Shown piece by piece: positions 48,074 to 63,757 of a stretch of 64,000 bases of DNA (position 1 is its first letter; the number at the start of each line of letters is the position of its first letter). The position numbers and the translations under genes were made by a program. This DNA comes from a virus (lineage: Duplodnaviria; Heunggongvirae; Uroviricota; Caudoviricetes): positions 1 through 64,000 of the IMG/VR virus record IMGVR_UViG_3300035670_000138, one strand, 5' to 3'. The notes below the pieces were generated by a model that was not told the DNA's origin, searched no databases, and worked only from the letters and a program-made list of their open reading frames with translations.

Positions 48074-48093
48074 AATTTCCTTTTTTATTATAC

Positions 48094-48131: not shown

Positions 48132-48140
48132 TTAAATTAA

Positions 48141-49067: not shown

Positions 49068-49099
49068 TATTTCCTCCTATAAACCCCTAACATTAGGGA

Positions 49100-50113
49100 T
49101 TATTTCCAAGTTACTATTTCCATTACCATGTTTGCTTTTGGTGCAGTAAAGTATAAAGTTTCTTTACCTGCAATTATTTGAAGATTATTCTCTTCATATA
49201 CAACACCATAACCTTTACTTAAATAAGCTCCTGCTGATACCCAAGACACTGTGTAAGTACTCTTACTGTCTCTAATATTCATTTGGAAGCGTTTAGTATC
49301 TAAAGGTAAAGCTAAGCTATATTCAGTTCCTGCAACAGGCATACTTACGTTATAAACCGAAGGATCTTTCGATATAATCGGATCAAGGCTTACAACCGAT
49401 GTTACAGTTATTTCATCTCTTTCTACGTCAAAACTTGCAGTATAAGGGTTATATAATAATCCCTTTAATTTATTCCCGTTATAAACAGGACTTCCATCTA
49501 AGTCGTAGGTTAATTCAACTTCGCCTACAAGGAAAGAACTTCCTTCTTTAAGTCTTGTTACTAAGAATCCTGTAGTACCTACGTCTAAAGGATCTGTCTC
49601 TCCAAACTGAAAATATTCTACATCTACTTTATTCGAGATTATTTCATCATTTATTACTACAAACTCTGTAGTATTGCTAATTACTGACTTTAACGTAAAT
49701 GCAACAAGTGCAGCAGGATCGTTATTATTTAAGTCTACTTGTATCTCTACATCTCCGATTCCGGGGGCTGTACCTACTCCTGATACCTTAAACCAAAATA
49801 CATAACTCTTTTTACTTATAGATTCCTGAAGAATCATATAAGTACCTGCTAAATCACCTCCAACATCAGCTCTAACCGTTATTCTGTCCTGAGTAGGATC
49901 GGTTGCCTGATAATATTCAACTTTTGTTGGTCTATCATTTACGTCCAATGTCTGAACGAAATGAGTATACGCATCTTTTAATATCGCATTAGTATCATAC
50001 TGTCTATAAGCAGACTGAAGCTCCGAGAATGCCATCTTCTGCGTCTGTGAGCCGTCAAATTGCGAGTTTTTGACGTTTCTAAAGTCTAACTTATTGTCCT
50101 TCTTATTGCTCAT
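49100..50113 (-). CDS. hypothetical structural protein (337 aa)
   Basis: ORF. Confidence 0.45.
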   Translation of the reverse strand: MSNKKDNKLDFRNVKNSQFDGSQTQKMAFSELQSAYRQYDTNAILKDAYTHFVQTLDVNDRPTKVEYYQATDPTQDRITVRADVGGDLAGTYMILQESISKKSYVFWFKVSGVGTAPGIGDVEIQVDLNNNDPAALVAFTLKSVISNTTEFVVINDEIISNKVDVEYFQFGETDPLDVGTTGFLVTRLKEGSSFLVGEVELTYDLDGSPVYNGNKLKGLLYNPYTASFDVERDEITVTSVVSLDPIISKDPSVYNVSMPVAGTEYSLALPLDTKRFQMNIRDSKSTYTVSWVSAGAYLSKGYGVVYEENNLQIIAGKETLYFTAPKANMVMEIVTWK

Positions 50114-52155
50114 TAAATCCCCGTAACAGCAGCTCTAAATTTTACATCCATCGAAACGAACCCCGTGTAAATAGGGCTAGAGTAAATAATTTGTCCTGAA
50201 TTGTTTATGTTAAAATCAACGTTAGTATCATCACCTCTTGACTCTACAGTAATTTCCCAAGAAGCACCTTTCTGTATACCTCTTATTTCAAATTCTTCGT
50301 ATAAATCAGTGTCTGCATCAACTACAACGCTAACTTGAGCGTTAAACGATCGTACAGAGCCATTTGCAAAAGCGAACCCTGTAACGTTAGCTGAAGATGC
50401 TCCAGATGCTCCCGAGAATGATGTTTCACTTAAGTCGCCTGAACTAGATAATGAAATCCCTGATAAGAAATTAGCTCTTGTCATCTTCTTTCTAGCAGAA
50501 GCTGAATTATCCCAAATTAAGATCTCATCGGCATTGTCGGCAGAAGTTTCAGCAGTAGTTCCGTTAATATCAACAACTAAAGATCTAGTTGCAGTTATGT
50601 TACCGCCACCAGATAGTCCGGAATTTGCAGCCGTTTGAATTTCAACAGTACTATGATCTACGTGTTCATTAGATACAAAGTCTGCTAAAGAATCGTGACT
50701 AACCCCTGCAGGAATAACTGCAGCAGTAATTGTGTTATTTACGTCGTCATATGTTAAGTCGACGCTCGAAGAATCTACAAGTATTCCTCCTACAGCATCT
50801 TGAGCTTTTTCATTTGTGAAGTATAAATTAGTACCTTCAGCAATATCTGTTGTACTTTTTGTAGCTAATCTTGTGTCAAAATCTCCGTTAAAATTAGCTG
50901 CGATATATTTTTCACTATCTAATTCATTTAATGCAGCTTGAACGTCTGTAGCCACTAAATTTCCTGACGGAACATTTGAGATAGCCGAAGCATCATGAGC
51001 ATCTACTGCGTCGTTAATATGGTTAGTTAAGTCTGAAGCTAACGCTCTAGTATCAATGTCTGATTGTAGTTCATTTAACGCAGCTTGAACGTCTGTTGCT
51101 GCTAAATTACCTGCCGGAGTATTATTAATCTGAGCTGCACTATGCTTGCCCGGATCAGTGTCTATATGGTCCGCTAAAGTAGACTCTGCTGTATCTAGCC
51201 TACCTTCTACTTCGTCTATTGCAGTTTGAACGTTAGTTGCTACTAATCCCGAGCTTATATTACTATAAGATATCTCAGAAGCTTGATCTTTTGTAGCAAT
51301 TTGATCATTTATGTAAGTTTTAATAGCCTGAGATGAAGCTAGATTTGTATCACTAACTGCTCCAGAAATATCTGTCTGGATTACTCCTGCTTTAAAATTA
51401 TCTGTTTCAATATTTGACAATGTGTTATCGTCAACATTGATTGTTTTGTTTAGTAAGGTTTGAGTATGTTGAGTTGTAACTATCTCATGAGCACTTCCTA
51501 CTTCCCCTGCCTTAAATTTCGACTGTAGAGTAGAGTCATACCCAATTAAAGCATCTGTTGCGTCAGACATTTCAATAGTAATACCTGCGTCTTGAGTATC
51601 TGCAGAAGCTTGTGTTCCGTTTTTATTTAGTACTATATTACCATCTTCAACGTCTAAAGTTGTAGAGTTTACTGATGTAGTTGTTCCATTTACAGTTAAA
51701 TTACCATCAATTGTAAGGTCATTAATTCCTGTTACGTTATTTAGATCGTCGACAGTAATAGCAGTAGCTTCAACGTCTATTCCCGAAGTTCCTACCGACT
51801 TAACAAGTTTATTGTCAGTCATAGGTAACGCTGCGTTAATTTTAGTATCTAGTTCATCTTGGATCTTTTGAGAAGACCATAAAGATGAGCTTGTAGTGCT
51901 TGCATCATCTAACGGAGCGTGTTCATCAGCTTCGTAATTAAGCAATGCATCATGGTTGATATTTGCTTCATTAACGTCAATTTCTAGAGTCTCATTTCCG
52001 CCCGGATTAGCTGTAGTTACTGAAACTTTACTAGATCCTTCGACAATTTTATCTTCTAAAAAGCCGGACAATGTATCATCTGCTGACACCTTAGCTTTCT
52101 TATCGTCTGATCCGCTTCCGCCTTCAAATATGGTGATTTTTTTGTAAATACCCAT
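50113..52155 (-). CDS. tail-fibre-like protein (680 aa), modular paralog of 59646..61586
   Basis: It shares the modules TQTLLNKTINVDDNTLSNIETDNFKAGV and ATDVQAALNELQSDIDTRALASDLTNHINDAVDAHDASAISNVPSGNL (the latter twice) with the 646-aa protein. It is T/S/N/D-rich. Confidence 0.55.
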   Translation of the reverse strand: MGIYKKITIFEGGSGSDDKKAKVSADDTLSGFLEDKIVEGSSKVSVTTANPGGNETLEIDVNEANINHDALLNYEADEHAPLDDASTTSSSLWSSQKIQDELDTKINAALPMTDNKLVKSVGTSGIDVEATAITVDDLNNVTGINDLTIDGNLTVNGTTTSVNSTTLDVEDGNIVLNKNGTQASADTQDAGITIEMSDATDALIGYDSTLQSKFKAGEVGSAHEIVTTQHTQTLLNKTINVDDNTLSNIETDNFKAGVIQTDISGAVSDTNLASSQAIKTYINDQIATKDQASEISYSNISSGLVATNVQTAIDEVEGRLDTAESTLADHIDTDPGKHSAAQINNTPAGNLAATDVQAALNELQSDIDTRALASDLTNHINDAVDAHDASAISNVPSGNLVATDVQAALNELDSEKYIAANFNGDFDTRLATKSTTDIAEGTNLYFTNEKAQDAVGGILVDSSSVDLTYDDVNNTITAAVIPAGVSHDSLADFVSNEHVDHSTVEIQTAANSGLSGGGNITATRSLVVDINGTTAETSADNADEILIWDNSASARKKMTRANFLSGISLSSSGDLSETSFSGASGASSANVTGFAFANGSVRSFNAQVSVVVDADTDLYEEFEIRGIQKGASWEITVESRGDDTNVDFNINNSGQIIYSSPIYTGFVSMDVKFRAAVTGI

Positions 52156-52164
52156 TGATTCTCC

Positions 52165-52518
52165 TTAGTGTCTCTTTCTTCCGCTGTAGTTAGCACCTGT
52201 AACGTCTATGCTTCCAGTTCCTGCAAATCTTAATCTAAGATAGCTTGGACCCATTCCTGCAATATCGTATATGATAGTATCAGATGCATTTGTTAGTAAT
52301 TGATCACTATCTGTTACGTCAACAAAAGAGATACCATCTACAGATGTTTGAACATATACTGTTAGGTTTGGAGATATTCCGTTAACATAGTCGATTTGTA
52401 TACCAAATTCAGCTTCTCTATTGTCGATTGTTATAGTCTTTGAAACATAACCATCTTCAACAGTAACAGGACCTTCTATCAGTTTTATCTTTAATATAGC
52501 GTCTAAAACAAATCCCAT
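52165..52518 (-). CDS. hypothetical protein (117 aa)
   Basis: ORF. Confidence 0.4.
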   Translation of the reverse strand: MGFVLDAILKIKLIEGPVTVEDGYVSKTITIDNREAEFGIQIDYVNGISPNLTVYVQTSVDGISFVDVTDSDQLLTNASDTIIYDIAGMGPSYLRLRFAGTGSIDVTGANYSGRKRH

Positions 52519-52520
52519 TT

Positions 52521-53123
52521 TTACTCCAATATTTTGTTAATTTTATCGTTAATCTTTTTAGTTTTACTTATTATACTATTACTTACTTCTATATATTTCT
52601 TTCTGTAAAATTGTTCGAAGTTTTGAAGCTTTAATTTAGTAATTGACTTTAATGTTTCGCCTTTACTAAAGTTTCTAAGATACTCTCTATATTCCCTGAA
52701 AAGCTTCTTAATTTCGGGTTCTAGAGGACAGTCGGCTATTTGCGTAAAATCTGTCTTTTCTAGTATCAAATCTCTTTTATCAGTTAGTAACCTTAGATAT
52801 TCTTCCGGTTCTAATGATGTCTCAGTTTCTTCTATTGTGTAACTATATTCCGGAGGATATGTTACTAAATACTCAATTCCTTCAACTACTGGTAGACCTA
52901 AATCGTCTAGTACTATTTCATATGTAGAAGGATCAAATTTGTATTTCTCAACTTCTTTATATTCAAGGTTTACAGGTTTATTTTCCTGTCTAACCTCTCT
53001 AGCATTTTTACCAAAGTTCTCTTTATTTATATGACCTTGTAGCCAATTTTCAGCGTCAACTTTATTCTCGAACTTTGCCGAGAATTGTCTTCCGTGAATA
53101 TTACTTACCTTTACGTGGAACAT
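52521..53123 (-). CDS. hypothetical protein (200 aa from the ATG; the track's alternative TTG start is at 53150)
   Basis: ORF lying between fibre genes. It may be a fibre assembly factor. Confidence 0.4.
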   Translation of the reverse strand: MFHVKVSNIHGRQFSAKFENKVDAENWLQGHINKENFGKNAREVRQENKPVNLEYKEVEKYKFDPSTYEIVLDDLGLPVVEGIEYLVTYPPEYSYTIEETETSLEPEEYLRLLTDKRDLILEKTDFTQIADCPLEPEIKKLFREYREYLRNFSKGETLKSITKLKLQNFEQFYRKKYIEVSNSIISKTKKINDKINKILE

Positions 53124-53255
53124 TCTTGTCTCTGTTCTTAAAAAATTCAATCTGAGATAATCTACGCAAAGCCTCTTTTTTAGTGTTATAGTCTGAACCG
53201 AGATTTTTTCCCGATTCAGACATCACTTTAAATTTATCGCCTTGTTTCTTTATCA

Positions 53256-55343
53256 TTATTTAATTCTTGCTATTGAGAAAGTGTTATTCGTTCCAGTTGT
53301 TACAGGAGTTACAGGTGCTCCCACTGTATTTCGTATTGTTATCTGTTGACCTTTTTGAGCGTATCCTACATACGAAGTTTGAGCTATAGCTTGTGACGAT
53401 ATTATTAGACCATCCGATTTTTGAGTTGAATCTATAAATATTGCAACTGCTAAACTTACACTAGCATTAGGTCTTGCTGATGCTCGAATTAAGTAATATC
53501 CACTAACAGGTATTGTATAAACTCCTGTGGAGGTGTTATAAGAATTGTGAGTATCAAAATCTTTAGTTTCATATATAAAATTAGATCCGTTGCCAACACT
53601 TGCACCACTTGTATTAGAATAACTAGCAGCAACAGTTTCTGTTTCCAATATTGTTTGCGGTTGAGCTAGTTTTTGGATATGGATGTGATGATACTGGGTT
53701 GTATTTGAAAGAGTTAAAGAATTTGCCGCTCTAAAGCTTAAAACTTGTCCTTTTGTTAATCTAAAGGTACCACTTATCTGATGTTCTGCTACTGTCGATC
53801 CTGCGAACCCTACAGCTTTATTTAATGTACCATCAATGTATGCATTAATTACTGTATTTGAAGATGTTGTAAAGTTCACAAACCCTTTAACATCGTAATC
53901 CCCTGTCTCAGGAGCAGTAAATTGCGTCCCATTCCATGAACCAGTTGTATCTTCAACCTCTGTAAAATCAATATTAGTTGTGTTAGCAGTTATAGCTGTT
54001 CCACCATTTCCTGCACCCCTTACTCTCACTTCTCTATTGCCAATATCTTCTGATTGGACAGAATTTGATGACCAACCTTGGACGGGTATTTCAAATTGAC
54101 CTGTTACTCCAAAAGGTGCTCCACCAAAAGACACGAAGCTAGATGACCAAAGATTGTATGAATATTGTAAAGCACTTCCTGAATTAGTTACAAATTGTAC
54201 CAACAACCTACTGTTATCATTAACGTCGACAGTAACAAATCCATGTCTTTCAACTCCACCATTTTCATTTGTAATAACTGTACCGACATTAGCGCTAACA
54301 TAAGAAGCGTTGGATGGTGTCTTTGATAAATCGACCTTGATTCCAGTAGGTAAATTAATTACATAAGTGCCACTTCCTGCTGTTCCCACACTAGATTGTA
54401 TAAAATCTAATCTACCTATAAATGAACTCCCTACTCTTTTTCCGTGAAATTTATCAACAACTATAGTACCCTTTGTTGGATTAGTTGTTGTTCCAGATAT
54501 AGGTATTGATCCATAATCTATCCAATCAGTCATAGCTGACCCATAACTAACTTCTCTAGGTCCCACTTGTACATTATCTAAGTTGACCGTATATGCACTT
54601 GCATTAGTTGAACTAACGTGCAATATTAATCTGTATGAAGTAGAAGTGGCATCAGATTGGAACCACGCTAAATGAGTTCCTTGCGTCCCCTTTAAATCTT
54701 CTCCATTACAGCGAATTAATCTTGAATTAGTTACGTCATAAATCTGTACTCTTATATCATTATCGTCATAATCAGCCGAAGTTAAGTAATCAAAGCTAAT
54801 ATATAATTTCTTAGATAAGTCAGCTTTTTCAATTGTGAAAGGTATACTAACACCTTCACCTTGTCTGTTTACTGCAGTTTTAGTCAATAAAAAGTCGGCA
54901 GTATCTCTCAAAGGAGTTGTCGTATTTCTAGTAAATGTGATGTTTGGAGATCCACCAGTTCCATCTACAGCGTTAGCTCCTGCTGCGTCAGCATATGTAG
55001 ACCACCCGTCAGTATTTAACTCAGCGTCAGGATTACTAATATAGTTAATTCCGCCTTGTCCAGATCCCACTTCCGCTAAAGCTGCATCTAAAACTTGATA
55101 CATCTTTTTAGCGTCTGTTGCGAAGCATAGTTGACCGTTTGAAGCAGTCAAAGCATAAGTTTGAAGGTTTGATAAAGTATCTTTCTTTACGTCGGCTCTA
55201 ACCGGACTTTGGATTGATGCAGAAATTACATCTGATCCATTTATGTCACATGTCGAGTCTAATGTCTTATTTTCGAGAGTCTGTGAACTATCTAAGTCCG
55301 TAACTCCCGTTGGTTTTTGTCCTGATGCTAAACTAGTTGCCAT
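53256..55343 (-). CDS. tail-fibre/receptor-binding-like protein (695 aa) with a C-terminal C1q/TNF-like pattern
   Basis: It shares the N-terminal module SIQSPVRADVKKDTLSNLQTYALTASNGQLCFATDAKKMYQV with the 646-aa fibre. The C-terminus is GVYTIPVSGYYLIRASARP... Confidence 0.5.
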   Translation of the reverse strand: MATSLASGQKPTGVTDLDSSQTLENKTLDSTCDINGSDVISASIQSPVRADVKKDTLSNLQTYALTASNGQLCFATDAKKMYQVLDAALAEVGSGQGGINYISNPDAELNTDGWSTYADAAGANAVDGTGGSPNITFTRNTTTPLRDTADFLLTKTAVNRQGEGVSIPFTIEKADLSKKLYISFDYLTSADYDDNDIRVQIYDVTNSRLIRCNGEDLKGTQGTHLAWFQSDATSTSYRLILHVSSTNASAYTVNLDNVQVGPREVSYGSAMTDWIDYGSIPISGTTTNPTKGTIVVDKFHGKRVGSSFIGRLDFIQSSVGTAGSGTYVINLPTGIKVDLSKTPSNASYVSANVGTVITNENGGVERHGFVTVDVNDNSRLLVQFVTNSGSALQYSYNLWSSSFVSFGGAPFGVTGQFEIPVQGWSSNSVQSEDIGNREVRVRGAGNGGTAITANTTNIDFTEVEDTTGSWNGTQFTAPETGDYDVKGFVNFTTSSNTVINAYIDGTLNKAVGFAGSTVAEHQISGTFRLTKGQVLSFRAANSLTLSNTTQYHHIHIQKLAQPQTILETETVAASYSNTSGASVGNGSNFIYETKDFDTHNSYNTSTGVYTIPVSGYYLIRASARPNASVSLAVAIFIDSTQKSDGLIISSQAIAQTSYVGYAQKGQQITIRNTVGAPVTPVTTGTNNTFSIARIK

Positions 55344-55359
55344 ATTATTCTCCTATTAT

Positions 55360-55593
55360 TTACCCGTTATATTTAAGCCATTTTTGTAAAGGACATTCTT
55401 CTTGTCTAAATTTCGTTTTAGCTGATAAAAAACATCCACATTTCGAACATTGATTTGTAGTTTTTATCCTATATTCACAATCATTACATATATCTTGTCT
55501 TTGACTTGATACTATTTCCGGTACGCTTTGATCTACACCTTTAGCAGCATTAGCTGCAATTGTGAATAAACTTTTCATTCCAGATTTAAGCAT
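55360..55593 (-). CDS. small Cys-rich protein (77 aa)
   Basis: It carries about 8 Cys in C-x2-C spacing: CNDCEYRIKTTNQCSKCGCF...EEC. Confidence 0.4.
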   Translation of the reverse strand: MLKSGMKSLFTIAANAAKGVDQSVPEIVSSQRQDICNDCEYRIKTTNQCSKCGCFLSAKTKFRQEECPLQKWLKYNG

Positions 55594-56086
55594 TAGCTAC
55601 CTCTTCCTTTTGCATTTTCTGAATATTCTCCAGAATTTGATCAAGCATTGGTAAGTTAAATCCGTCTACTTTTCCTAAAAATCCATACTCATTTTCAGCG
55701 TCTATACTAGATCCGTGAAACACGAAGAATTTAGGTACTTGTATTGGAGCTTTTAAAACTAACTCTCCATTTTCATCTCTAGCAAGTCTTGTTAAAGCCT
55801 TACCTTTAGCATCATAAATTACGTCACCATCTTCATCTTTTATTTCTTCCATTACTGGTTGTTTTTCAGTAAAGTTAGAATAGAAATCGTAAACAGCTTG
55901 GTTATTTAGTTCCATTTCAAAAAACTTGTAATCTTGGAACTTTTTAGGCAGTTCTGCATATCCTTCTTTTGCTTCAGAACATGCAGAACACCCATTAACC
56001 CAAATCATTAGTACTGATAATTGATCTTTTTTAAGTTCGTCTAAATTTTCAACTTGTAGCGTATTAACATTCACGTTAGACTCCAT
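55586..56086 (-). CDS. thioredoxin-fold protein with a CxxC motif (WVNGCSACS)
   Basis: The CSAC motif follows a W. A downstream VPKFFVF resembles the Trx cis-Pro strand. Confidence 0.4.
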   Translation of the reverse strand: MESNVNVNTLQVENLDELKKDQLSVLMIWVNGCSACSEAKEGYAELPKKFQDYKFFEMELNNQAVYDFYSNFTEKQPVMEEIKDEDGDVIYDAKGKALTRLARDENGELVLKAPIQVPKFFVFHGSSIDAENEYGFLGKVDGFNLPMLDQILENIQKMQKEEVANA

Positions 56087-56091
56087 TTATT

Positions 56092-58617
56092 TTACCATTC
56101 GTCTGTTTCTATGTAGTTGTCTGGAAGTTCACATATTTTTAAATAAGATGCACTAGTTGGAGGAGTTTGACCATTCAAAATAACATTCGTCATATCTGTC
56201 AGGTCAACTCTTATTGTTGAATTTAAAGGTTGAAATGGCCCAAATGTTTCACTGAATGAATCCCTAAATAGCACCAAGTTGCTAGCTCCCCCAATCACCA
56301 CAGCAATGTCAGTGCCGTCACCATATTCAACTCTGGCAGTAAATGTTTTTTGATTATTTACCACTGTAGACTCTAAAACTTGAAATCTGTACGCTAATGT
56401 GTATTTTTTTGTTAAATCCAAATTGTTAAAAGTTAACGCTGAAACGATGCCAGTGCTACTTGTAGTTGAAGTCATGTATTTTGTCTGACATTTCACGTTT
56501 TTATTATCATTCAAATTTTTAACAATGCCTGCTAGATCAGGTTCTTGCTTAATTGTTAGCCAATGTAAATTGGATAAGTTTTGAACTGTAAATCCTGTGT
56601 TTGATCTAATAGCAAGTTTATCTCCTGCGTTTAAATAAACGACACCTTGAATATGATGAGATTGAGCTGCACCAATATTTCCACTTAATGAAATGCTTTG
56701 GTTAAACCCTAATCCTGTATCTATATATGCATAAAATACTGGATCAATACTCCCTGCTGCTCTAATATTACCAGATATAGAATAGAACCCTGCTCCATCG
56801 CTAGGTACAGTCATATATCTATTAGCAGAATCCCATATTGAAAAAGGATCAGATAGTTCATTAAACTGGATATTTCCTGTATTTGCTGCAATTATGCTTG
56901 CATTATCATTTCCGTCTAGTCTGACATTATAAAGCTCAGTACTCTTAATCTGCTCGAATTGTCCGACAATCATTGTAGATTTTGATGTAGGTTTATAATC
57001 TACAGTAATATCAGCTCTTAAGTTACTGCCTGTATAAGGCATATTTACTAATTCACAAGCACCCGCTCCTGCGGTTAATGCTACACTTTGTAAATCAAAT
57101 TTAGTAGCAGAACTTAAATCTGATGATAAGTTTAATACAAAAGTTTTGGAACTATCCCAATTATCTCCGTTTGGGATATAACTAGCACTCACAGACGTGT
57201 GGTTAGTTGAGCCGTCGCTATATCTCCATAAGCAAGCACTATTCACAGTGTTAAAAACATTAACAAATCCTCCATTTACAGTTATATGATACTGTCCTGC
57301 TTTACTTCCGGCAGGTAAAATAAAATGTGGAGTTTTTGTCCCATCGTGACTAATATCTATATTTAAAGATGAAGTAGGATTATTACAATCCGCATCTGCT
57401 ACATATGATTGCCACGAGGTAGTCTTGGTATTTGACCAAATACAATTTGCAGAAGGAGCAAATGTTAAAGTTCCTAATGTTCTTGCTAATTCTGTAGTTT
57501 GTTGTGTTACAATTGTAGTTTTTGGAGGGTAGTAATAAACTGATGCAGTTAATTTTCCTTGAGTTGGAGAATTTATGATTGTTGCGTTTAATCCTGTTGT
57601 TTGAGTTATTGCTCCCAATTGAAATTGTTTCAAACTAGCGGAACTACTATTTGCAACAAATGTTATACTAGCTTCACTTCCTTGAGTTGAAACTCCTCCT
57701 GTATCAAAATAAATACCCCCGCCGTAAAAAGTATTACTACCGTCACTGATATACTGATACAGCCTACCAGTGGCACTATAATTACTCGTAAATGATCCAT
57801 TGAATACTATCTTATAACTTCCAATTTTTGTATTTAACTGAAAAGCCGGAATTTTAGTAGACGGAGCAATTAAATCTCCTGTCACCGATGGAGTAGGACA
57901 GTCTGCATCGGCAGTATATCCAGTAAAAGTTGAATTAGATGTAGTTTGACCCCAATCACAATTTGTAGTTCCTGCCCATGTAATAGTTCCGACCAATTCA
58001 CCTTGAGCAACTTCAAATCCATAAGAACTCGGAGTCAACCCTACGAAAGGCTGATCAATATATACATCACCAGTTACTCCAATTGTAGACTCTACTATAA
58101 AGCCCATTTCAGTTCCGCCGATAACTACTGGTAGCTCATATTGCTTCCACTTATTAGTAGCTGATACTGGTAGCGTAGATAACTTAACTCCATCTTGAAC
58201 TGAAGATATTTGTAAGTTTTGAACACTAGTTCTAATCCATACTGAAACAGTACCTTGAATCTCATGTAATGATGAATCAACTGGAGCTTGGAATTGAATA
58301 GATCCTACTGATCCAGAAAATGTAGCTTTGATTGATTTATTGTTATCGTCAATTGGTAAGAATGTTACTGTATCAACAGCAGAAGTTACGTTAACTAAGT
58401 CTGGAGTTAGTTTTTCAAACTCAGGCATTAAGTTACCACCAATTCCTGCTGATCCGCCTACACTAGACCAATCTGCTGAAGTAGCATCATAACGCTTTAT
58501 CTTGTTATCGTCAGTTGAATCTGCAATTAAATCCCCTGCTTCAGGGTTTACAATTTCTGAAGGGTCTATCGGATTTAACGTAAGACCGTTTTTTACTTTA
58601 AAGCTATTTTTACTCAT
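56092..58617 (-). CDS. tail-fibre/spike-like protein (841 aa)
   Basis: The N-terminus reads FKVKNGLTLNP. It is S/T/N/G-rich and β-rich, and its C-terminus resembles that of the 695-aa protein. Confidence 0.45.
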   Translation of the reverse strand: MSKNSFKVKNGLTLNPIDPSEIVNPEAGDLIADSTDDNKIKRYDATSADWSSVGGSAGIGGNLMPEFEKLTPDLVNVTSAVDTVTFLPIDDNNKSIKATFSGSVGSIQFQAPVDSSLHEIQGTVSVWIRTSVQNLQISSVQDGVKLSTLPVSATNKWKQYELPVVIGGTEMGFIVESTIGVTGDVYIDQPFVGLTPSSYGFEVAQGELVGTITWAGTTNCDWGQTTSNSTFTGYTADADCPTPSVTGDLIAPSTKIPAFQLNTKIGSYKIVFNGSFTSNYSATGRLYQYISDGSNTFYGGGIYFDTGGVSTQGSEASITFVANSSSASLKQFQLGAITQTTGLNATIINSPTQGKLTASVYYYPPKTTIVTQQTTELARTLGTLTFAPSANCIWSNTKTTSWQSYVADADCNNPTSSLNIDISHDGTKTPHFILPAGSKAGQYHITVNGGFVNVFNTVNSACLWRYSDGSTNHTSVSASYIPNGDNWDSSKTFVLNLSSDLSSATKFDLQSVALTAGAGACELVNMPYTGSNLRADITVDYKPTSKSTMIVGQFEQIKSTELYNVRLDGNDNASIIAANTGNIQFNELSDPFSIWDSANRYMTVPSDGAGFYSISGNIRAAGSIDPVFYAYIDTGLGFNQSISLSGNIGAAQSHHIQGVVYLNAGDKLAIRSNTGFTVQNLSNLHWLTIKQEPDLAGIVKNLNDNKNVKCQTKYMTSTTSSTGIVSALTFNNLDLTKKYTLAYRFQVLESTVVNNQKTFTARVEYGDGTDIAVVIGGASNLVLFRDSFSETFGPFQPLNSTIRVDLTDMTNVILNGQTPPTSASYLKICELPDNYIETDEW

Positions 58618-58655
58618 TTTATTCTCCTAAGTTCACTTTCCGTTAGGTTTGTATA

Positions 58656-58856
58656 TTATAATTTTGGTTGTATTACATTATCAATAATTTCTAGTTCAGG
58701 CTTTAATACTGATACCCACTGGTTATCAATAAAAGCTATTGTATATTGCTCAGTAATTTCAGGTAAGTCACCTGAAACAGAGTTTTCTGGTTGTTCGTCA
58801 GTTTCTACTGACTCTATGAAAATTTTTGTATCTGCATCAAATTTATGAAATAACAT
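58656..58856 (-). CDS. hypothetical small protein (66 aa)
   Basis: ORF. Confidence 0.35.
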   Translation of the reverse strand: MLFHKFDADTKIFIESVETDEQPENSVSGDLPEITEQYTIAFIDNQWVSVLKPELEIIDNVIQPKL

Positions 58857-58863
58857 ATATCTC

Positions 58864-59643
58864 CTATAACTTTATGATGTAATTAACTAATGAATTTTGT
58901 GGTCTTGTTTCGGTTACTATGCCTGTATTGTTTGCTGTACTCTTAGTATAGGTCCCAAGTAATCCTCCCCCGTCGCCATCTGGAGCTAAACACTGAGAAC
59001 CGCCTCCTGCTCTTGTGTTATAGTTGTGACTTATATTATGTCCGTGAGCCTTTATTGCTTCATCTTGAACCGAACCTACATTGTTACCACTATTACCTCC
59101 AACTCCGTTAACAGTTCTACTGGATGCATCTGGATCTTCATATTGAATAATAACTGCACTATTTGTTCCTGAAATAGCTATTTTAGTCCCAGCTAAAGCA
59201 TTAGCTTTAGACGTAGCGAAAGCTAGTGTATTTGAATTAATTACTATAGCATAATAATCAATACTAACTGCTAAACCAGTTAAAGTTCCACTTGATAATC
59301 TTACTTTAAATCCTGTTCTATTTATACCGTGGTTAGTAAATGTTGCATTATTAGAAGAAGGAGTCCCTGAACCTGAAACAGTTGATATATCCACCTTACC
59401 TCTAAGAAAGCTACCTCTAAGGTCCGGTAAGTTAAAAGTAGTACTACCATCCCCATTACCCCAAGAAGTTCCTATAGCAGCAAATAATGCAGCATATGTA
59501 CTTCTACTTAAAGTAGTTCCGTTACACAAAACCCATCCCTCCGGTGCAGTAGCTCCTGCAAAAGGAACCACAGTTCCCGAAGGAAACTGAACAGGGAATA
59601 AAGCTAATTCATTTGTTGATTTTCTTTTAGTTCCGCTTGCCAT
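58864..59643 (-). CDS. tail-fibre protein with a phage tail-collar domain and a Gly-rich C-terminus
   Basis: The segment PEGWVLCNGTTLSRSTYAALFAAIGTSWGNGDGSTTFNLPDLRGSFLRG matches the tail-collar (T4 gp12-type) domain. Confidence 0.65.
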   Translation of the reverse strand: MASGTKRKSTNELALFPVQFPSGTVVPFAGATAPEGWVLCNGTTLSRSTYAALFAAIGTSWGNGDGSTTFNLPDLRGSFLRGKVDISTVSGSGTPSSNNATFTNHGINRTGFKVRLSSGTLTGLAVSIDYYAIVINSNTLAFATSKANALAGTKIAISGTNSAVIIQYEDPDASSRTVNGVGGNSGNNVGSVQDEAIKAHGHNISHNYNTRAGGGSQCLAPDGDGGGLLGTYTKSTANNTGIVTETRPQNSLVNYIIKL

Positions 59644-59645
59644 TA

Positions 59646-61586
59646 TTATACCTCAAATAAGTTTTTAATATCTAGTTGTAATTTACTAACATAACCCGTT
59701 CCTGCTAAGTTCGAGCTTGTATATAACAATTGTCCCGTTACGTCTATACTAAAAGTAACTCCTGCATCATCTCCTGAAAAATCGTCAGATAATGACCAAG
59801 TGTTAGCTGTAGTTTTATATGATAATCTTAACTGACCGACTTGAGAAGCCTCATTTGAATCAGTTGATCTATAAATGCTATAATTAATTATCGCTGCTCT
59901 GAACCCATCAAAAATCGCTCCAGTTACTGCCGTAGGAGAAGCTTGGTTATTTGTGATAGTTGCTCCACTTATAGTAACTTCTCTGTTAAATTCAGCAGAA
60001 GCTGCTAAGTCTGGTAGAACTAAAATTTCAGTAGCAGATATTGCTTTACCTAAAATAATTTGGTAAGTATTTGTTTGAGTAGGCTTAGGTTGAACATAAT
60101 TGCCGGGAGTTGAAGGATCTGCATAAACAAATTCTCCTGCTGTTAATCCCGAGAATCCACCTAATTTACCTGAGATAACAATATCTACTGGAGCAGCTCC
60201 GGCAGTTGCCTCTCTTGTAAAACCAATAAATTCAATCTTAGCATCATCAGTACAATCTAATTTATTTACTTGACCGATTGAGCTAATATATACTGCAGTT
60301 CTAATTGCCATCGGCTCGTTTGCAGTAATTGTAACAACTTGTTCTTGAACAAAAGCTCCATTCCAAGTTGAACCATTTTTCTGTAAGAATTGTTTATCTT
60401 CAGAAGCTGAAACATCAACATCGGCAAGATCGTTTAACGGAGTTTGTTCTCCAACAACGCTAGGTCTATAAACCATAACTTGTAAAAAGTTAGCACTTTC
60501 TACGAAGAATAAAGGGTTAGAATAATCAGTTGTTGGTTCAGTCGATGTCGGCTGTCCTAACACTGAGTTAGATAGAAAGTAGTACTGTCCTACTGTAAAT
60601 CCGTGAGCAGGAACTTCTACTCTACCGAATTGGTAAGCAACAAAGCTATCTACATCAGGAACTTCAGTAACTACGAAAGTAGCAAGAGTTGCGCCTGAAT
60701 TAGCTTGTCCTTTAACCCAAGAAGTACCATTGTGATAAATACCGTTACCAACAGATAGTCCGTGAGCAACTTGATCTATTTCAATAGTGGTTCCACCTGC
60801 TCCGCCTACTGGCTGAAGTTCGTTTGCAATAATTTGGAACATTTTAAGTTCGTCTGTTGCAAATACTAACTGTCCATTAGTTGCAGTTAATGCATATGTT
60901 TCTAAGTTAGCTAAAGTATCTTGTTTTACGTCCAATCTTGTTGGAGTTTGGATACTAGCATTTGTAATTGTTCCGTTATTTGCTAACGCTCTTGTATCAA
61001 TGTCTGATTGTAGCTCGTTTACAGCTCCCTGAAGGTCTGTAGCAGCTAAATTGCCTGAAGGTACGTTAGATATAGCTGAAGCGTCGTGAGCGTCTACAGC
61101 GTCGTTTAAGTGGTTAGTAAGGTCACTAGCTAAAGCTTTTGTTTGTAAAGCAGCGTCAACATCATCTAAAGCTGTCTGAAGGTTACTACCTAGTACTTCA
61201 ACATTACCTGTTGGATCATAAGCTATTTCAGAAGCTTCGTTTTGTCCTGCTAATCCGTTATCAATATAAGTCTTTACTGCTAAAGCTGAAGGGATTTGAG
61301 TGTTTGATGCACCTGATAAACCCGTGTCGGTGTTCAACACCCCAGACTTTAGATTATCTGTTTCTAAATTACTAACAGTGTTATTATCAGCATCGATTGA
61401 TTTATTAGTTAATGTCTGAGTTTGATTCTCAGTAACAACAGATCTGTCTGCTGCATTTAAACGTATTTTGAGTTTGTTATCATTACTGTCAACTGACATT
61501 TCACCGTCAGATGAGTGAGTATTTACAGTCAAGTCGGTTGGCTTTAACTTGACTCCTATATCTAACTTTTTTCTAACTTTAGCCAT
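59646..61586 (-). CDS. tail-fibre-like protein (646 aa), modular paralog of 50113..52155 and 53256..55343
   Basis: It shares modules with both paralogs (see findings). Confidence 0.55.
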   Translation of the reverse strand: MAKVRKKLDIGVKLKPTDLTVNTHSSDGEMSVDSNDNKLKIRLNAADRSVVTENQTQTLTNKSIDADNNTVSNLETDNLKSGVLNTDTGLSGASNTQIPSALAVKTYIDNGLAGQNEASEIAYDPTGNVEVLGSNLQTALDDVDAALQTKALASDLTNHLNDAVDAHDASAISNVPSGNLAATDLQGAVNELQSDIDTRALANNGTITNASIQTPTRLDVKQDTLANLETYALTATNGQLVFATDELKMFQIIANELQPVGGAGGTTIEIDQVAHGLSVGNGIYHNGTSWVKGQANSGATLATFVVTEVPDVDSFVAYQFGRVEVPAHGFTVGQYYFLSNSVLGQPTSTEPTTDYSNPLFFVESANFLQVMVYRPSVVGEQTPLNDLADVDVSASEDKQFLQKNGSTWNGAFVQEQVVTITANEPMAIRTAVYISSIGQVNKLDCTDDAKIEFIGFTREATAGAAPVDIVISGKLGGFSGLTAGEFVYADPSTPGNYVQPKPTQTNTYQIILGKAISATEILVLPDLAASAEFNREVTISGATITNNQASPTAVTGAIFDGFRAAIINYSIYRSTDSNEASQVGQLRLSYKTTANTWSLSDDFSGDDAGVTFSIDVTGQLLYTSSNLAGTGYVSKLQLDIKNLFEV

Positions 61587-61601
61587 TATATTCTCCTAAA
61601 T

Positions 61602-62072
61602 TTATAGTGCAGATTCGTCGATAATTGCTTTAGCTTTATACTTAATGCTAAGACCGTTTGGAGCATCATCAGGATCAGCAACAGTTTCAAATCTAAACTG
61701 ACCTCCGACTGTATCAAATGAAACATTGGTATCTTCTCCAACAAATTCTGAGTTTATTAAAAATACAGAACCGTTATAGACTCCTTCAATTGTAAATGAT
61801 TCATATTTTGTAGGATTTACATTGAACTCTCTAGTAATCATTCCTTCGATAAAAACTCTTTGAACAAAGCTTGTATCAAATTGAAGACCTGATATATCAC
61901 CAGAAGTACCTGCTAATATTGTTTCAGTTGTAGATATGTCTCCGGGACCTTTTACTTCTTTTAAAGCGTCGGTTACAGCTTCTGCCCATCCTGTAGCTTC
62001 TTCACCATAGTTAGAAGATCCAGTGACGGGGTATTCAAAAATCTCTTCTCCGACCTGTAAATTTTTAGACAT
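61602..62072 (-). CDS. hypothetical structural protein (156 aa); first gene after late motif copy 3
   Basis: The motif lies 8 nt upstream of its ATG. Confidence 0.45.
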   Translation of the reverse strand: MSKNLQVGEEIFEYPVTGSSNYGEEATGWAEAVTDALKEVKGPGDISTTETILAGTSGDISGLQFDTSFVQRVFIEGMITREFNVNPTKYESFTIEGVYNGSVFLINSEFVGEDTNVSFDTVGGQFRFETVADPDDAPNGLSIKYKAKAIIDESAL

Positions 62073-62080
62073 AATTACCT

Positions 62081-62100
62081 CTATATATAGTTGTTAATTT
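62081..62100 (-). promoter_or_regulatory. conserved late motif copy 3 (- strand: AAATTAACAACTATATATAG)
   Basis: Same 20-mer as copies 1 and 2. Confidence 0.5.
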
Positions 62101-62213: not shown

Positions 62214-63488
62214 TTATGAAACTGCGATGTATCTTAATTGACAGATAGAAGCAGGTCTAGATGTGAAAAGAGCTTGGTCAGTATGACATCTCATTTCAAC
62301 ACCATGATATCCTTCTAGTAACTCTAAGTATTCCTCACCATCTGGTCTTTTGAAAGTAACTTCTTGAGAACCAATTCTCTTGAAATCTTTTTCACAGATT
62401 AAGTAAGAATACCCTTCTTTTACGAAAGTAGAAGCAACAACTTTGATAATCCCGTTTTGTCCGTAGAATTGTAATTCTCTAGCACCTGAGATTTCTTTGT
62501 TAGGGTTATAAGATGAGTCAGAAACTCTCTTAGCATCTTGTTCAGTTAAAAGGTCATTCCACTGCTTAGGGTTAACATAGCAAGTAACTTCTTCTTCCAT
62601 TAAACCTTTTTCAACCATTGCTTCAATACCTTCTTCGATTTTAGCAAGCGAAAGAACTGCAGGAGTTACGTCAGTACCTACGTCAACGATAGAACCTTGG
62701 AATAATGGCTCATTAGCATTTGCAATACCAAATAGAGAAGTTCTTTCTTGAGCGATACCGTGGATACCGATAAACTCGTTCTTCTCTGGAGAAGAAATAT
62801 CTTCTTTGGCAGCACCTTTGAAGAAAATTAAATCGTTAGCAACAATTTCAGCTACACCAAAGTTACCTGCTGACTTCTTTAAAGTAACAGTTTTATCTTT
62901 TAAAGAATAACCTTGGATAGTATAAATACCTCTCTTAGTAGCTAAGTTTGAAGAGAAAACTTCAACTTCAGCACCAGTTGTACCGTTCCAAATACCTGCA
63001 GCCCATTCAGCATCTTTAATTTCAATGTCGGCAGTAGGTGCACCATCTATGTTATTAGTTTTAACTACGCCAATACCTGATTGTCCGTAGAACATTTGTA
63101 CTTCTAATCTGTGGTACATAGACTTAAGCATGTTACCAACCATTAGGTCCATTGCTTTTTCGATTGATTGAGAGCTATCTTTTGATCTCGATAAAGCACC
63201 GATAGAAATAGCTGATCTTAAAACTAACTCTCTAGCTTTAATTAAAGCTTCTTGCATTTTAAATTCTTTTACTTGATTAAGTTCGAAAAGTGATCCACTT
63301 TCCCCTGCGTATGTAAATCCCGATTCAAGAGATAAAATTACAGGTTCATTGTACGATTTACCCATTTTTTTAGATGAATCGAATTTAATAGCGTTAAATA
63401 ATTTTACATGGTCTGGAACTAATTTAGCAACTTTGTCGCTATATCTTTCCTTAAAAAGACCGTTTAGTGTACTTACTTGGTTTGACAT
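62214..63488 (-). CDS. putative major capsid protein (424 aa)
   Basis: The call rests on context. It follows a scaffold-like ORF and a late motif, it is followed by a terminator, and its size fits HK97-fold capsid proteins. I recognise no diagnostic motif. Confidence 0.45.
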   Translation of the reverse strand: MSNQVSTLNGLFKERYSDKVAKLVPDHVKLFNAIKFDSSKKMGKSYNEPVILSLESGFTYAGESGSLFELNQVKEFKMQEALIKARELVLRSAISIGALSRSKDSSQSIEKAMDLMVGNMLKSMYHRLEVQMFYGQSGIGVVKTNNIDGAPTADIEIKDAEWAAGIWNGTTGAEVEVFSSNLATKRGIYTIQGYSLKDKTVTLKKSAGNFGVAEIVANDLIFFKGAAKEDISSPEKNEFIGIHGIAQERTSLFGIANANEPLFQGSIVDVGTDVTPAVLSLAKIEEGIEAMVEKGLMEEEVTCYVNPKQWNDLLTEQDAKRVSDSSYNPNKEISGARELQFYGQNGIIKVVASTFVKEGYSYLICEKDFKRIGSQEVTFKRPDGEEYLELLEGYHGVEMRCHTDQALFTSRPASICQLRYIAVS

Positions 63489-63698: not shown

Positions 63699-63757
63699 TC
63701 AAGCTAAATAATTAAAATTTTTACAAAAAAATTCAGATTTGCAATAATATCAATTAC

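What the first reader, a model, noticed from the sequence alone, without database searches (positions are those of the whole stretch)
50113..61586. Three large fibre-like genes are mosaics that share N-terminal sequence modules but have different C-termini
Proteins 59646..61586 (646 aa) and 50113..52155 (680 aa) share an approximately 30-aa module, TQTL[LT]NK[TS]I[ND][VA]D[DN]NT[LV]SN[IL]ETDN[FL]K[AS]GV. They also share an approximately 50-aa module, ALASDLTNH[IL]NDAVDAHDASAISNVPSGNL.ATD.Q.A.NELQSDIDTRALA, which appears twice in the 680-aa protein. Proteins 59646..61586 and 53256..55343 (695 aa) share SIQ[TS]P.R.DVK.DTL.NL.TYALTA.NGQL.FATD..KM.Q. The DNA of the shared modules is roughly 80% identical, for example around 50990..51120 versus 60930..61140, while the C-terminal halves are unrelated. 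This is the pattern expected for receptor-binding proteins that swap distal domains by recombination at conserved proximal modules. A single virion with three or more distinct fibres suggests multiple receptors or a broad, switchable host range.
Basis: seen in the sequence. Interest (0 to 1): 0.55.

Follow-up and report, generated by a model that had tools for sequence, protein, structure and literature searches.

The report
Mosaic tail-fibre genes, uncultured aquatic phage
An uncultured aquatic phage encodes at least five fibre-like virion proteins assembled from a shared kit of sequence modules that related phages combine differently; this is a well-documented new example of the known mosaic evolution of phage host-recognition genes, not a new kind of system.

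Summary
The shared modules are real. p646 and p680 match at E=2e-38 and p646 and p695 at E=2e-19, against at most 25 bits in 200 shuffles. Three details need correcting. DNA identity is 60-63% over the modules; only one 76-nt core reaches 84%. In p680 the module is central, not N-terminal. The C-termini are not all unrelated: p646, p680 and the stand-alone p156 share a ~100-aa jellyroll domain (K) that resembles T4-type baseplate protein gp9, and p695 shares a C1q-like domain with p841.

Codon choice at identical residues is at chance level (40 same codons, 41.9 expected). The paralogous modules are therefore old and protein-constrained, not recently exchanged inside this genome.

Shuffling is clear across relatives. 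Homologues join the p680 head to a p646 body, the p646 head to a p695 body, and p646 to Collar or p841 parts. A2 copy number ranges from 1 to 6. Break-points fall at predicted domain linkers. About 3,200 cluster representatives carry the A1-A2-B block.

Fibre identity is inferred from a Collar protein, C1q-like domains, a chaperone and a cultured-phage fibre match. No inversion switch was found. Multiple receptors remain untested. This is a new member of a known kind.

The parts
61602..62072 (-). p156: 156-aa stand-alone protein directly downstream of the capsid gene. It is homologous to the C-terminal K domain of p646 and p680 and has a gp9-like jellyroll fold.
59646..61586 (-). p646: fibre-like protein that links all the modules (N646-A1-A2-B-C646-K).
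   Evidence: AF2 mean pLDDT 83 with confidence dips at module borders.
61440..61586 (-). N646 head (aa 1-49): position-specific N-terminal module with a marginal colinear match to the p841 N-terminus.
   Evidence: Conserved in orthologues at the syntenic position. N646 HMM vs p841 aa1-45, E=0.012. In the exhaustive search the A block usually starts at residue ~33-40.
61242..61439 (-). Module A1 of p646 (aa 50-115, TQTLTNK...KTYI).
   Evidence: HMM E=5e-32. 57% identical to HMO-2011 gp43 'tail fiber protein' aa216-285 and 45% to HTVC104P gp73.
60987..61241 (-). Module A2 of p646 (aa 116-200): two ~49-aa units (H-x7-H-D-A-S-A-I ... A-T-D-[VL]-Q-x-A-[LV]-N-E-L), each a loop plus a helix.
   Evidence: Helices 136-161 and 185-199 in the AF2 model.
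60792..60986 (-). Module B of p646 (aa 201-265), shared with the N-terminus of p695.
   Evidence: BLASTP E=2e-19. B HMM E=1.9e-36 for p646 and 2.4e-29 for p695.
59982..60791 (-). C646 (aa 266-535): two beta-rich domains separated by a low-confidence linker at about aa 373-400.
   Evidence: AF2 model. Break-points of homologues at aa ~401-417.
59649..59981 (-). K domain of p646 (aa 536-646), gp9-like jellyroll.
   Evidence: pLDDT above 90. K HMM E=5e-43. Foldseek hits of the p646 model to KP1 gp9 chain and T4 gp9.
58864..59643 (-). p259: protein with a Phage Tail Collar domain. It is fused to p646- or p695-type parts in some relatives.
   Evidence: Pfam PF07484 E=2e-26 and tail-fibre PHROGs. 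Fusions P0113 and P0102.
56092..58617 (-). p841: fourth large fibre-like protein. Its N-terminal ~58 aa are conserved in relatives on a different body. A C1q-like domain at aa 550-691 (56545-56970) is shared with p695.
   Evidence: E=3e-11. L009 and L010 635-aa genes combine the p841 N-terminus (41-64% identity) with a p695-type body.
53256..55343 (-). p695: module B at aa 11-98 (55050-55313), a 314-aa unassigned domain, then two tandem C1q/BclA_C-like domains (aa 413-560 and 561-695).
   Evidence: BclA_C E=8e-4; C1q E=0.003, both below Pfam cut-offs. Orthologues carry precomputed C1q/BclA_C hits.
52521..53150 (-). p209: putative tail-fibre assembly chaperone downstream of p695.
   Evidence: phrog_4912 'tail fiber assembly' E=2e-5. 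27-28% identical to syntenic 177-aa proteins annotated PF16778 Phage_tail_APC.
50113..52155 (-). p680: N680 head (aa 1-206, 51538-52155), A1 (aa 225-290, 51286-51483), three A2 units (aa ~280-432, 50860-51318), M680 (aa 433-585), K domain (aa 586-680, 50116-50400).
   Evidence: phrog_697 'structural protein' for aa131-207. The position of A1 matches that in HMO-2011 gp43.
47082..47567 (-). p161: small protein with one weak A2-type motif near its N-terminus. It lies in a second variable cassette (p161-p569-p245).
   Evidence: Motif scan. A2 HMM E=0.007. The cassette has no nucleotide match in close relative L015.

Best explanation
The region is the host-recognition gene cluster of an uncultured aquatic phage with a P22-type portal. 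The phage is probably short-tailed, because no sheath or tube genes were recognised. The cluster encodes at least five fibre-type proteins (p646, p259, p841, p695, p680), a small gp9-like protein (p156) and a fibre chaperone (p209).

The large proteins are built from a common kit of parts:
- short position-specific N-terminal heads (N646, N841, N680), which are inferred to dock each protein at its own site on the virion;
- shaft modules A1 (~65 aa), A2 (a ~49-aa loop-helix unit present in 1-6 copies) and B (~65 aa);
- interchangeable distal blocks (C646; M680; an unassigned domain followed by tandem C1q-like domains);
- a terminal gp9-like jellyroll, the K domain.

Shown here. The modules are homologous. 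The paralogues within this genome are old and kept similar by selection on the protein, not by recent DNA exchange. Related phages carry the same modules in different combinations and copy numbers, with junctions at domain linkers or at A2 and B units.

Inferred. New combinations arise by occasional recombination between co-infecting relatives, using short homology or illegitimate joins at module borders, possibly helped by homing endonucleases seen in relatives' clusters. Only joins at domain borders fold and survive. Different distal blocks are inferred to confer different receptor specificities.
For: Homology of modules.

Old paralogy. Same-codon counts are at expectation (40 vs 41.9; 18 vs 17.6). 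K domains sort by orthology (48-82% between orthologues, 23-36% between paralogues). The longest exact matches are 20 nt and 11 nt.

Shuffling in relatives:
- N680-A1-A2-B-C646-K (P0168, P0105, P0201, P0226);
- N646-A-B joined to a p695 body (P0083, P0107, L004, L005);
- p646 aa1-405, one A2 unit, then a p695 body (P0042, P0030, P0055);
- a chimera with p841-type parts (P0099) and chimeras with Collar parts (P0113, P0102);
- A2 present six times (P0080);
- the p841 head on a p695 body in L009 and L010;
- the shaft replaced between conserved ends in L015, which is ~77% identical in nucleotides in the flanks.

Break-points cluster at aa ~47, 116, 200, 265 and 401-417 of p646. These coincide with AF2 confidence dips at 200-220, 262-264 and 373-400.

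Spread. 3,182 cluster representatives of 241-2,939 aa carry the block, which mostly starts at residue ~33-40.

Fibre or tail identity: Collar domain E=2e-26; tail-fibre PHROGs; C1q/BclA_C-like domains; Phage_tail_APC chaperone; A1 in HMO-2011 gp43 'tail fiber protein'; gp9-, tailspike- and tail-fibre-type fold of p156 and K. Synteny is conserved.
Against: No virion proteomics or imaging exists, so the fibre and tail assignments rest on domain similarity and on annotations that are themselves inferred.

The C1q/BclA_C hits in the window proteins are below Pfam cut-offs.

Modules A1, A2, B, C646, N680 and M680 match no Pfam family.

The p646 model also gives weak Foldseek hits to capsid decoration proteins and the phi29 head fibre (E=0.01-0.2), and p156 and p646 lie directly after the capsid gene. 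A head location for some of these proteins is therefore not excluded.

A2 unit 2 of p646 is closer to unit 3 of p680 in the same genome (85%) than to its orthologues (50-76%). That could be an old conversion event or a shared constraint.

The break-point census includes p680-family hits that share only A1-A2, which inflates the peaks at ~47 and ~200.
Confidence: 0.72

Rival explanations
1. Recent recombination or gene conversion between the paralogous fibre genes inside this genome keeps the modules similar and drives domain swapping.
For: There is an 84% identical 76-nt core containing a 20-nt exact match. A2 unit 2 of p646 is 85% identical to unit 3 of p680, more than to its orthologues. The p680 internal repeat (15 same codons vs 10.8 expected, P=0.06) and the K ends (12 vs 7.4, P=0.017) show slightly more same-codon use than expected.
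Against: Same-codon counts at identical residues are at chance for module A (40 vs 41.9), its core (17 vs 17.4) and module B (18 vs 17.6). Whole-module nucleotide identity is 60-63%. K domains sort strictly by orthology. The two nominally low P values come from 16-24 codons and do not survive correction for six tests.
Confidence: 0.08
2. Some of these proteins, especially p156 and p646 next to the capsid gene, are capsid-attached decoration proteins or head fibres and not tail fibres. The K jellyroll would then be the capsid-binding domain.
Confidence: 0.12
3. The similarity is a by-product of biased T/S/N/D-rich composition or of a generic coiled-coil or repeat signal, not true homology.
For: The proteins are rich in T, S, N, D and A, and contain short repeats.
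Against: Composition-adjusted E-values are 2e-38 and 2e-19 and do not change with SEG masking. Shuffled controls reach at most 25 bits, against 138 and 79 bits observed. Module HMMs built from hundreds of homologues recover the same segments at E=1e-21 to 1e-43.
Confidence: 0.01

Closest known systems
Mosaic tail-fibre and tailspike genes of cultured phages: T-even gp37/gp38, the P2/Mu/P1/lambda side fibres (from my own knowledge of the classical literature), and E. coli tailspike modularity (PMC10408124)
   Same: There is a conserved virion-proximal part and exchangeable distal receptor-binding parts. Junctions lie at conserved motifs or domain borders. Exchange occurs between otherwise divergent phages.
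   Different: The modules here (A1, A2, B, N646, N680, C646, M680) belong to no catalogued family. Shaft segments and N-terminal heads are exchanged as well as distal ends. The phage lineage has no cultured relative: terminase is at most 29% identical and capsid 23.5% identical to any reference phage.
Branched multi-tailspike complexes of Ackermannviridae (TSP1-4 linked by T4 gp10-like XD domains; PMC11414711, PMC8432352) and dual receptor-binding-protein Klebsiella podoviruses (PMC13579863; Kp9 gp42, PDB 7xy1)
   Different: Here the jellyroll sits at the C-terminal end of two fibres and also as a separate 156-aa protein, not near the N-terminus of a tailspike. There are no beta-helix depolymerase domains. 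No protein-protein contacts have been shown.
T4 gp9, the baseplate protein that connects the long tail fibres (PDB 1qex), and its KP1 homologue (9f4a_LA)
   Different: Sequence identity is 6-13% and there is no detectable sequence homology. p156 covers only one gp9-size domain. The host phage has no recognisable contractile-tail baseplate.
Puniceispirillum phage HMO-2011 gp43 'tail fiber protein' and Pelagibacter phage HTVC103P/104P gp73
   Same: They carry module A1 (45-57% identity over ~65-100 aa) at about residue 200-285, the same position as in p680.
   Different: BLASTP detects nothing else in common. Those genomes are ~55 kb and have different capsid genes.

Membership tests
Phage tail fibre / receptor-binding protein (functional class) | Structural component of the virion tail | not testable with these tools
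   Indirect evidence only: location in the late structural block beside a Collar protein and a fibre chaperone.
Phage tail fibre / receptor-binding protein (functional class) | Elongated multi-domain, usually trimeric, architecture with a distal binding domain | tested here: inconclusive
   The monomer AF2 model of p646 has a string of separate confident domains with low pTM of 0.35. That fits an extended protein, but no oligomer was modelled.
Phage tail fibre / receptor-binding protein (functional class) | Sequence or fold similarity to established fibre or spike proteins | tested here: met
   A1 matches HMO-2011 gp43. K and p156 match gp9, tailspikes and Kp9 gp42. p259 matches Collar PF07484 at E=2e-26.
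Mosaic (recombinationally shuffled) fibre genes | The same module is found joined to different partners in related genomes | tested here: met
   Architecture census and junction maps. L015 shaft replacement.
Mosaic (recombinationally shuffled) fibre genes | Nucleotide-level evidence of recent exchange between the paralogues of this genome | tested here: not met
   Same-codon counts are at expectation. The longest exact match is 20 nt.
T4 gp9 / gp10-like jellyroll connector domains | Jellyroll fold superimposable on gp9 | tested here: met
T4 gp9 / gp10-like jellyroll connector domains | Detectable sequence homology to gp9 or gp10 | tested here: not met
   No PDB sequence hit for p646 or p680. 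No Pfam or PHROG hit for p156.
T4 gp9 / gp10-like jellyroll connector domains | Acts as a docking site for another fibre protein | not testable with these tools
   The only hint is that relatives carry covalent fusions of p695- or Collar-type parts in place of K.
C1q / BclA_C (TNF-like) globular domain | Score above the Pfam gathering threshold | tested here: not met
   p695 aa451-559 scores 19.7 bits on BclA_C (cut-off 38). p695 aa561-695 scores 18.2 bits on C1q (cut-off 23.7). Orthologues have precomputed weak or unmarked C1q/BclA_C hits, so the domain is C1q-like but membership is unproven.
Phage Tail Collar domain (PF07484) | Score above the Pfam gathering threshold | tested here: met
   p259 aa23-79 scores 92.1 bits against a cut-off of 24.
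Programmed host-range switches (invertible fibre segments; diversity-generating retroelements) | Inverted repeats flanking fibre 3' ends, or a template/variable repeat pair with a reverse transcriptase | tested here: not met
   No inverted repeat of 20 nt or more in 44000-62100. The self-BLAST of the window shows only the module repeats and short intergenic repeats. No invertase or reverse transcriptase appeared among the 19 larger proteins scanned against Pfam, but that scan was not exhaustive.

The most novel reading that the evidence does not exclude
The gp9-like jellyroll (K) may be a socket that chains fibres together. On this reading, the stand-alone p156 would be the socket on the virion, and the K domains at the ends of p646 and p680 would hold the N-terminal heads of further fibre proteins (p259, p841, p695). 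The result would be a serial or branched fibre network in a short-tailed aquatic phage. In relatives the same connections would have become covalent, as p646 joined to a p695 body or to a Collar part exactly where K would be. That would make it a C-terminal-socket version of the branched receptor-binding complexes known from Ackermannviridae and Klebsiella phages. It would also explain why so many distinct fibre genes coexist, and why one A2 unit of p646 and one of p680 are more alike within the genome than across genomes.
Probability: 0.2. Interest if true: 0.55.

Novelty: new member of a known kind. Interest (0 to 1): 0.3.

Why it matters
Mosaic receptor-binding genes are the main route by which phages change hosts. 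This cluster extends that picture to an abundant, uncultured aquatic lineage in which about 3,200 protein clusters carry the shared block. It defines uncatalogued modules (A1, A2, B, K) with mapped junctions. Those could improve annotation of tail fibres in metagenomes and guide chimeric-fibre design. It also shows that moderate DNA identity between paralogous modules can follow from protein constraint plus codon bias, so on its own it is not a sign of recombination. If the socket idea for the K domain holds, it would add a new way of assembling multi-fibre adsorption devices.

Tried and rejected
- Near-identity DNA search of the whole cluster against reference phages found nothing.
- Sequence searches of p646, p680 and p695 against PDB chains gave only noise.
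- Pfam and PHROGs were uninformative for most of the large proteins, and relaxed Pfam scans of single domains gave only sub-threshold C1q/BclA_C hits.
- I considered that p156 and the K domain might be a capsid decoration fold, because the p646 model hit decoration proteins. I modelled p156 separately, and its best matches were baseplate gp9, tailspikes and a tail fibre, with no decoration proteins. I therefore lowered that reading but did not exclude it.
- The intragenomic gene-conversion reading was tested with a same-codon test and rejected.
- A search for an inversion switch found no inverted repeats.
- BLASTP of neighbours of HMO-2011 gp43 and HTVC104P gp73 against window proteins found nothing beyond module A1.
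- p166 has a CxxC motif, but a thioredoxin assignment got no Pfam support.
- The literature look-up for domain boundaries of Kp9 gp42 led nowhere. I therefore could not determine which domain of the tailspike and fibre structures the K fold aligns to, because the fold-search output gives no residue ranges.
Full report
**What is there.** All genes from about 30.4 kb to the end of the window lie on the minus strand and form the late, structural block. The plus-strand half encodes replication and nucleotide-metabolism functions: class II ribonucleotide reductase, a PD-(D/E)XK nuclease, primase-helicase, family B DNA polymerase and thymidylate synthase. Downstream of the capsid-like gene (62214..63488) the order is:
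- p156 (61602..62072)
- p646 (59646..61586)
- p259 (58864..59643)
- p841 (56092..58617)
- p166 (55586..56086)
- p695 (53256..55343)
- p209 (52521..53150)
- p117 (52165..52518)
- p680 (50113..52155)
- then p337, p308, p94, p161, p569 and p245.

The window has no tRNA genes and no near match in reference phages. The capsid protein is 23.5% identical to its only reference hit. The terminase of a syntenic relative is at most 29% identical to any reference phage. This is therefore an uncultured lineage. The same sequence occurs on JGI and Logan metagenome contigs of up to 76.7 kb, and relatives occur on contigs of 75-95 kb, including a TARA ocean sample.

**Check of the observation.** The three ORFs and the shared modules are real. 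p646 aa36-199 aligns with p680 aa207-429 (43% identity, 138 bits, E=2e-38), with one extra repeat unit in p680. p646 aa176-265 aligns with p695 aa11-98 (48% identity, 79 bits, E=2e-19). p680 and p695 share nothing significant. SEG masking leaves the E-values unchanged, and 200 shuffles of the partner sequence give at most 25 bits.

Four details need correcting.
- The '~80% identical DNA' holds only for a 76-nt core (51038-51113 vs 60982-61057, 84%) and, more weakly, a 103-nt stretch of module B (72%). Codon-aligned identity over whole modules is 62.6% for A and 59.8% for B.
- In p680 the shared block is central, behind a 206-aa head.
- The C-termini are not all unrelated (see the K domain below).
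- A fourth large protein belongs to the set: p841 shares a C1q-like domain with p695 (E=3e-11).

**Module anatomy.** I defined modules from the pairwise alignments, built HMMs from the homologues returned by the deep searches, and scanned every ORF of at least 50 aa in the window.
- A1 (~65 aa, 'TQTLTNK...KTYI') is in p646 and p680. A fragment (SQTLENKTL) is in p695.
- A2 is a ~49-aa unit of the form H-x7-H-D-A-S-A-I-S-x-x-P-x-G-x-L-x-A-T-D-[VL]-Q-x-A-[LV]-x-E-L. It is present three times in p680 (aa 280-325, 329-373, 377-432) and twice in p646 (aa 110-150 weak, 157-202). One weak copy lies at the N-terminus of p161 (E=0.007).
- B (~65 aa) is in p646 and p695 (E=1.9e-36 and 2.4e-29).
- K, the last ~100 aa, is in p646 (5e-43), p680 (1.7e-21) and the stand-alone p156 (6.8e-10). 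A profile-profile comparison of the p156 family with the p646 family independently gives probability 89% and E=2.4e-6. A p156 homologue from locus L004 hits both K domains directly (E=7e-12 and 2e-8).
- The N-terminal ~45 residues of p646 and p841 align colinearly but only marginally (E=0.012).

None of A1, A2, B, C646, N680 or M680 matches a Pfam family.

**Structure.** An AlphaFold2 model of p646 built on 120 homologues is confident (mean pLDDT 83) but has low pTM (0.35), which indicates a string of independent domains. The model shows:
- a short beta N-terminus;
- helices in A1 and A2 (aa 101-115, 136-161, 185-199);
- a small alpha/beta B domain;
- two beta domains in C646;
- a very confident K domain (aa 538-645).

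Confidence dips fall at aa 200-220, 262-264, 373-400 and about 535, which are the module borders.

Foldseek of this model against the PDB finds a Klebsiella phage KP1 baseplate chain, T4 gp9 (the long-tail-fibre connector), Kp9 tail fibre gp42 and Acinetobacter tailspikes (E=1e-4 to 2e-3). More weakly (E=0.01-0.2), it finds capsid decoration proteins and the phi29 head fibre.

**Are the modules exchanged inside this genome?** If the paralogous modules had been homogenised recently, identical amino acids would tend to use identical codons. They do not. The counts below are same codons among identical degenerate positions, against the number expected from the block's own codon usage:
- module A: 40 of 92, expected 41.9 (simulation P=0.69);
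- its best-conserved core: 17 of 39, expected 17.4;
- module B: 18 of 37, expected 17.6.

The longest exact nucleotide matches are 20 nt (A core) and 11 nt (B). K domains sort cleanly by orthology across four genomes: orthologues are 48-82% identical and paralogues 23-36%. The paralogues are therefore old. Their residual DNA similarity is what protein conservation and an AT-rich codon bias produce.

Two small deviations remain. The p680 internal repeat has 15 same codons against 10.8 expected (P=0.06), which would fit a lineage-specific tandem duplication, since most orthologues are 580-640 aa. A2 unit 2 of p646 is more similar to unit 3 of p680 in the same genome (85%) than to its orthologues (50-76%). 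I cannot explain the latter, though a shared partner or an old conversion event are possible.

**Are the modules exchanged between genomes?** Yes. Gene order is conserved in relatives: terminase, P22-type portal, scaffold, capsid, p156-like, p646-like, Collar protein, two C1q-type proteins, Phage_tail_APC chaperone, p117-like, then a p680-like protein of 592 to at least 1,102 aa. Within this frame the parts differ.
- In L009 and L010, the gene at the p841 position has the p841 N-terminal ~58 aa (41-64% identity) on a p695-type body.
- In L004 and L005, the gene at the p646 position joins p646 aa1-200 to a p695-type body.

A census of 239 homologues, with junction maps, shows the following combinations:
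- N680-A1-A2-B-C646-K (P0168, P0105, P0201, P0226);
- N646-A1-A2-A2-B joined to p695 aa20-695, with B as the junction (P0083, P0107);
- p646 aa1-405, one A2 unit, then p695 aa99-695 (P0042, P0030, P0055);
- a p646/p695/p841 chimera (P0099);
- p646/p695 parts fused to the Collar protein (P0113, P0102);
- A2 present in one to six copies (P0080).

Ends of best alignments cluster at p646 aa ~47, 116, 180-220, 265 and 401-417, and at p680 aa 360-460. These positions match the predicted linkers. The peaks at ~47 and ~200 are inflated by p680-family hits that share only A1-A2.

The clearest nucleotide-level case is L015. Its flanking genes are ~77% identical to the window. Its p680 orthologue keeps aa1-109 (78%) and aa411-679 (83%), but the A1/A2 shaft is replaced and lengthened, and there is no nucleotide match to window 50912-51530. 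The exchangeable piece is therefore not always the distal end.

An exhaustive search of 1.84 billion cluster representatives finds the A1-A2-B block in 3,182 of them (1,201 at E<=1e-10). The proteins are 241-2,939 aa long, the block usually starts at residue ~33-40, and up to 12 matched stretches occur in one protein.

**What the proteins are.** The evidence for fibre or receptor-binding identity is indirect but consistent.
- p259 has a Phage Tail Collar domain (E=2e-26) and many tail-fibre PHROG hits.
- p695 has two tandem C1q/BclA_C-like domains. These are below the Pfam cut-offs here, but the same families are recorded for orthologues.
- p209 resembles tail-fibre assembly chaperones.
- A1 occurs at the same position as in p680 in the HMO-2011 gp43 'tail fiber protein' and in pelagiphage structural proteins.
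- K and p156 have the gp9, tailspike and tail-fibre fold.

A P22-type portal, a 977-aa protein with a C-terminal lysozyme domain and the absence of recognisable sheath or tube genes suggest a short-tailed virion. This is an inference.

**How it most likely works.** Each large gene has a position-specific N-terminal head, conserved among syntenic orthologues even when the rest differs. By analogy with other phages, the head docks the protein at its own site. The shaft is built from A1, A2 and B units. A single A2 or B unit often sits exactly at chimera junctions, so these units may act as structurally neutral joints. The distal blocks, which probably bind receptors, are interchangeable.

New combinations most likely arise in co-infections between relatives whose orthologous modules are much more alike than the paralogues within one genome. 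GIY-YIG and NUMOD3 homing-endonuclease genes lie between fibre genes in L009 and L010 and may stimulate such events. The homology, the old paralogy, the recombinant architectures and the junction positions are shown. The docking role of the heads, the receptor-binding role of the distal blocks and the recombination mechanism are inferred. I found no inverted repeats or other sign of a programmed switch.

**Comparison with what is known.** The phenomenon is the classical mosaicism of phage tail-fibre and tailspike genes. Modern examples are E. coli tailspike modularity (PMC10408124) and swappable receptor-binding modules on conserved N-terminal structural domains in Ackermannviridae (PMC8432352, PMC11414711). 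The latter papers describe T4 gp10-like jellyroll domains that link several receptor-binding proteins into a branched complex, and that gp10 contacts gp9.

The present cluster resembles these systems in logic. It differs in three ways. The modules are uncatalogued. Heads, shafts and ends are all exchanged. A gp9-like jellyroll is placed at the C-terminus of two fibres and also exists as a separate small protein.

The most novel reading not excluded is that K and p156 are sockets that chain fibres, with the covalent fusions in relatives as 'Rosetta stone' evidence. I give this about 0.2 probability, because no interaction was tested and K could equally be a distal binding knob.

**Verdict.** It is wrong about what the DNA identity signifies, and it is unsupported on 'switchable' host range. 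This is a well-documented new member of a known kind, of modest interest (0.3). The main residual value is the definition of new fibre modules and the open question of what the gp9-like K domain does.

Noticed in passing
window 44639-47567 (p161, p569, p245): This looks like a second variable cassette. The close relative L015 is ~77% identical in nucleotides on both sides but has no nucleotide match here. It carries 145-aa and 260-aa genes in place of p161, p569 and p245. p569 hits phrog_1645 'virion structural protein', and p161 has a weak A2 motif. These may be further host-recognition proteins.
   Followed up: partly
window 48141-49067 (p308), repeats 48525-48657 and 48747-48879: p308 contains an internal direct repeat (78% identity over 133 nt) that encodes 'DSVKIGDGTDF.EVNVDGSINAVV.ATDLDIRDL' units. 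The L004 homologue has three such units. It matches no family.
   Followed up: no
window 55586-56086 (p166): This small ORF between p841 and p695 has a CxxC motif (WVNGCSACSEAK) reminiscent of a thioredoxin fold, but it has no Pfam hit. No BLASTP match to it was found in the fetched relatives (L001-L010); it is present in the loci that carry this same phage sequence (L011). It lies next to the cysteine-rich body of p841. It may be a dedicated folding helper.
   Followed up: partly
L009 12560-13132; L010 9309-9998 and 18037-18618: GIY-YIG and NUMOD3 homing-endonuclease genes are inserted between fibre genes in relatives, at different positions in each. None is present in the window's cluster. 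They could promote exchange of neighbouring fibre modules.
   Followed up: no
window 38317-38381 and 63680-63754: A ~70-nt element (75% identical) lies upstream of both the capsid gene and p558 on the minus strand. It may be a shared late promoter or leader.
   Followed up: no
window 6164-6233, 20632-20706, 20991-21066, 21407-21458: A family of ~55-75-nt direct repeats (74-80% identical) lies in intergenic parts of the early, plus-strand region. These may be regulatory elements.
   Followed up: no
window 30463-33396 (p977): This 977-aa protein at the end of the late block has a C-terminal phage lysozyme domain (PF00959, E=3e-10). Together with the neighbouring 956-, 558- and 1,317-aa proteins, it resembles the large ejection or internal proteins of short-tailed phages.
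   Followed up: no
p646 aa159-167; p680 aa68-79, 330-338, 379-387: A pair of histidines spaced 7-10 residues apart (H-x7-H-[DS]-A in the A2 units) precedes each full A2 unit and is present in the family consensus. It may be a metal site on a trimer axis, as in T4 fibre proteins.
   Followed up: no
p646 aa590-646 vs p680 aa625-680 (window 59649-59819 vs 50116-50283): The extreme C-terminal ends of the two K domains use the same codon at 12 of 16 identical residues, against 7.4 expected (P=0.017 before correction for six tests). The sample is too small to interpret.
   Followed up: no
window ~30100-30460: The strand switch between the early (plus) and late (minus) gene blocks coincides with a sign change of GC and AT skew.
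   Followed up: no
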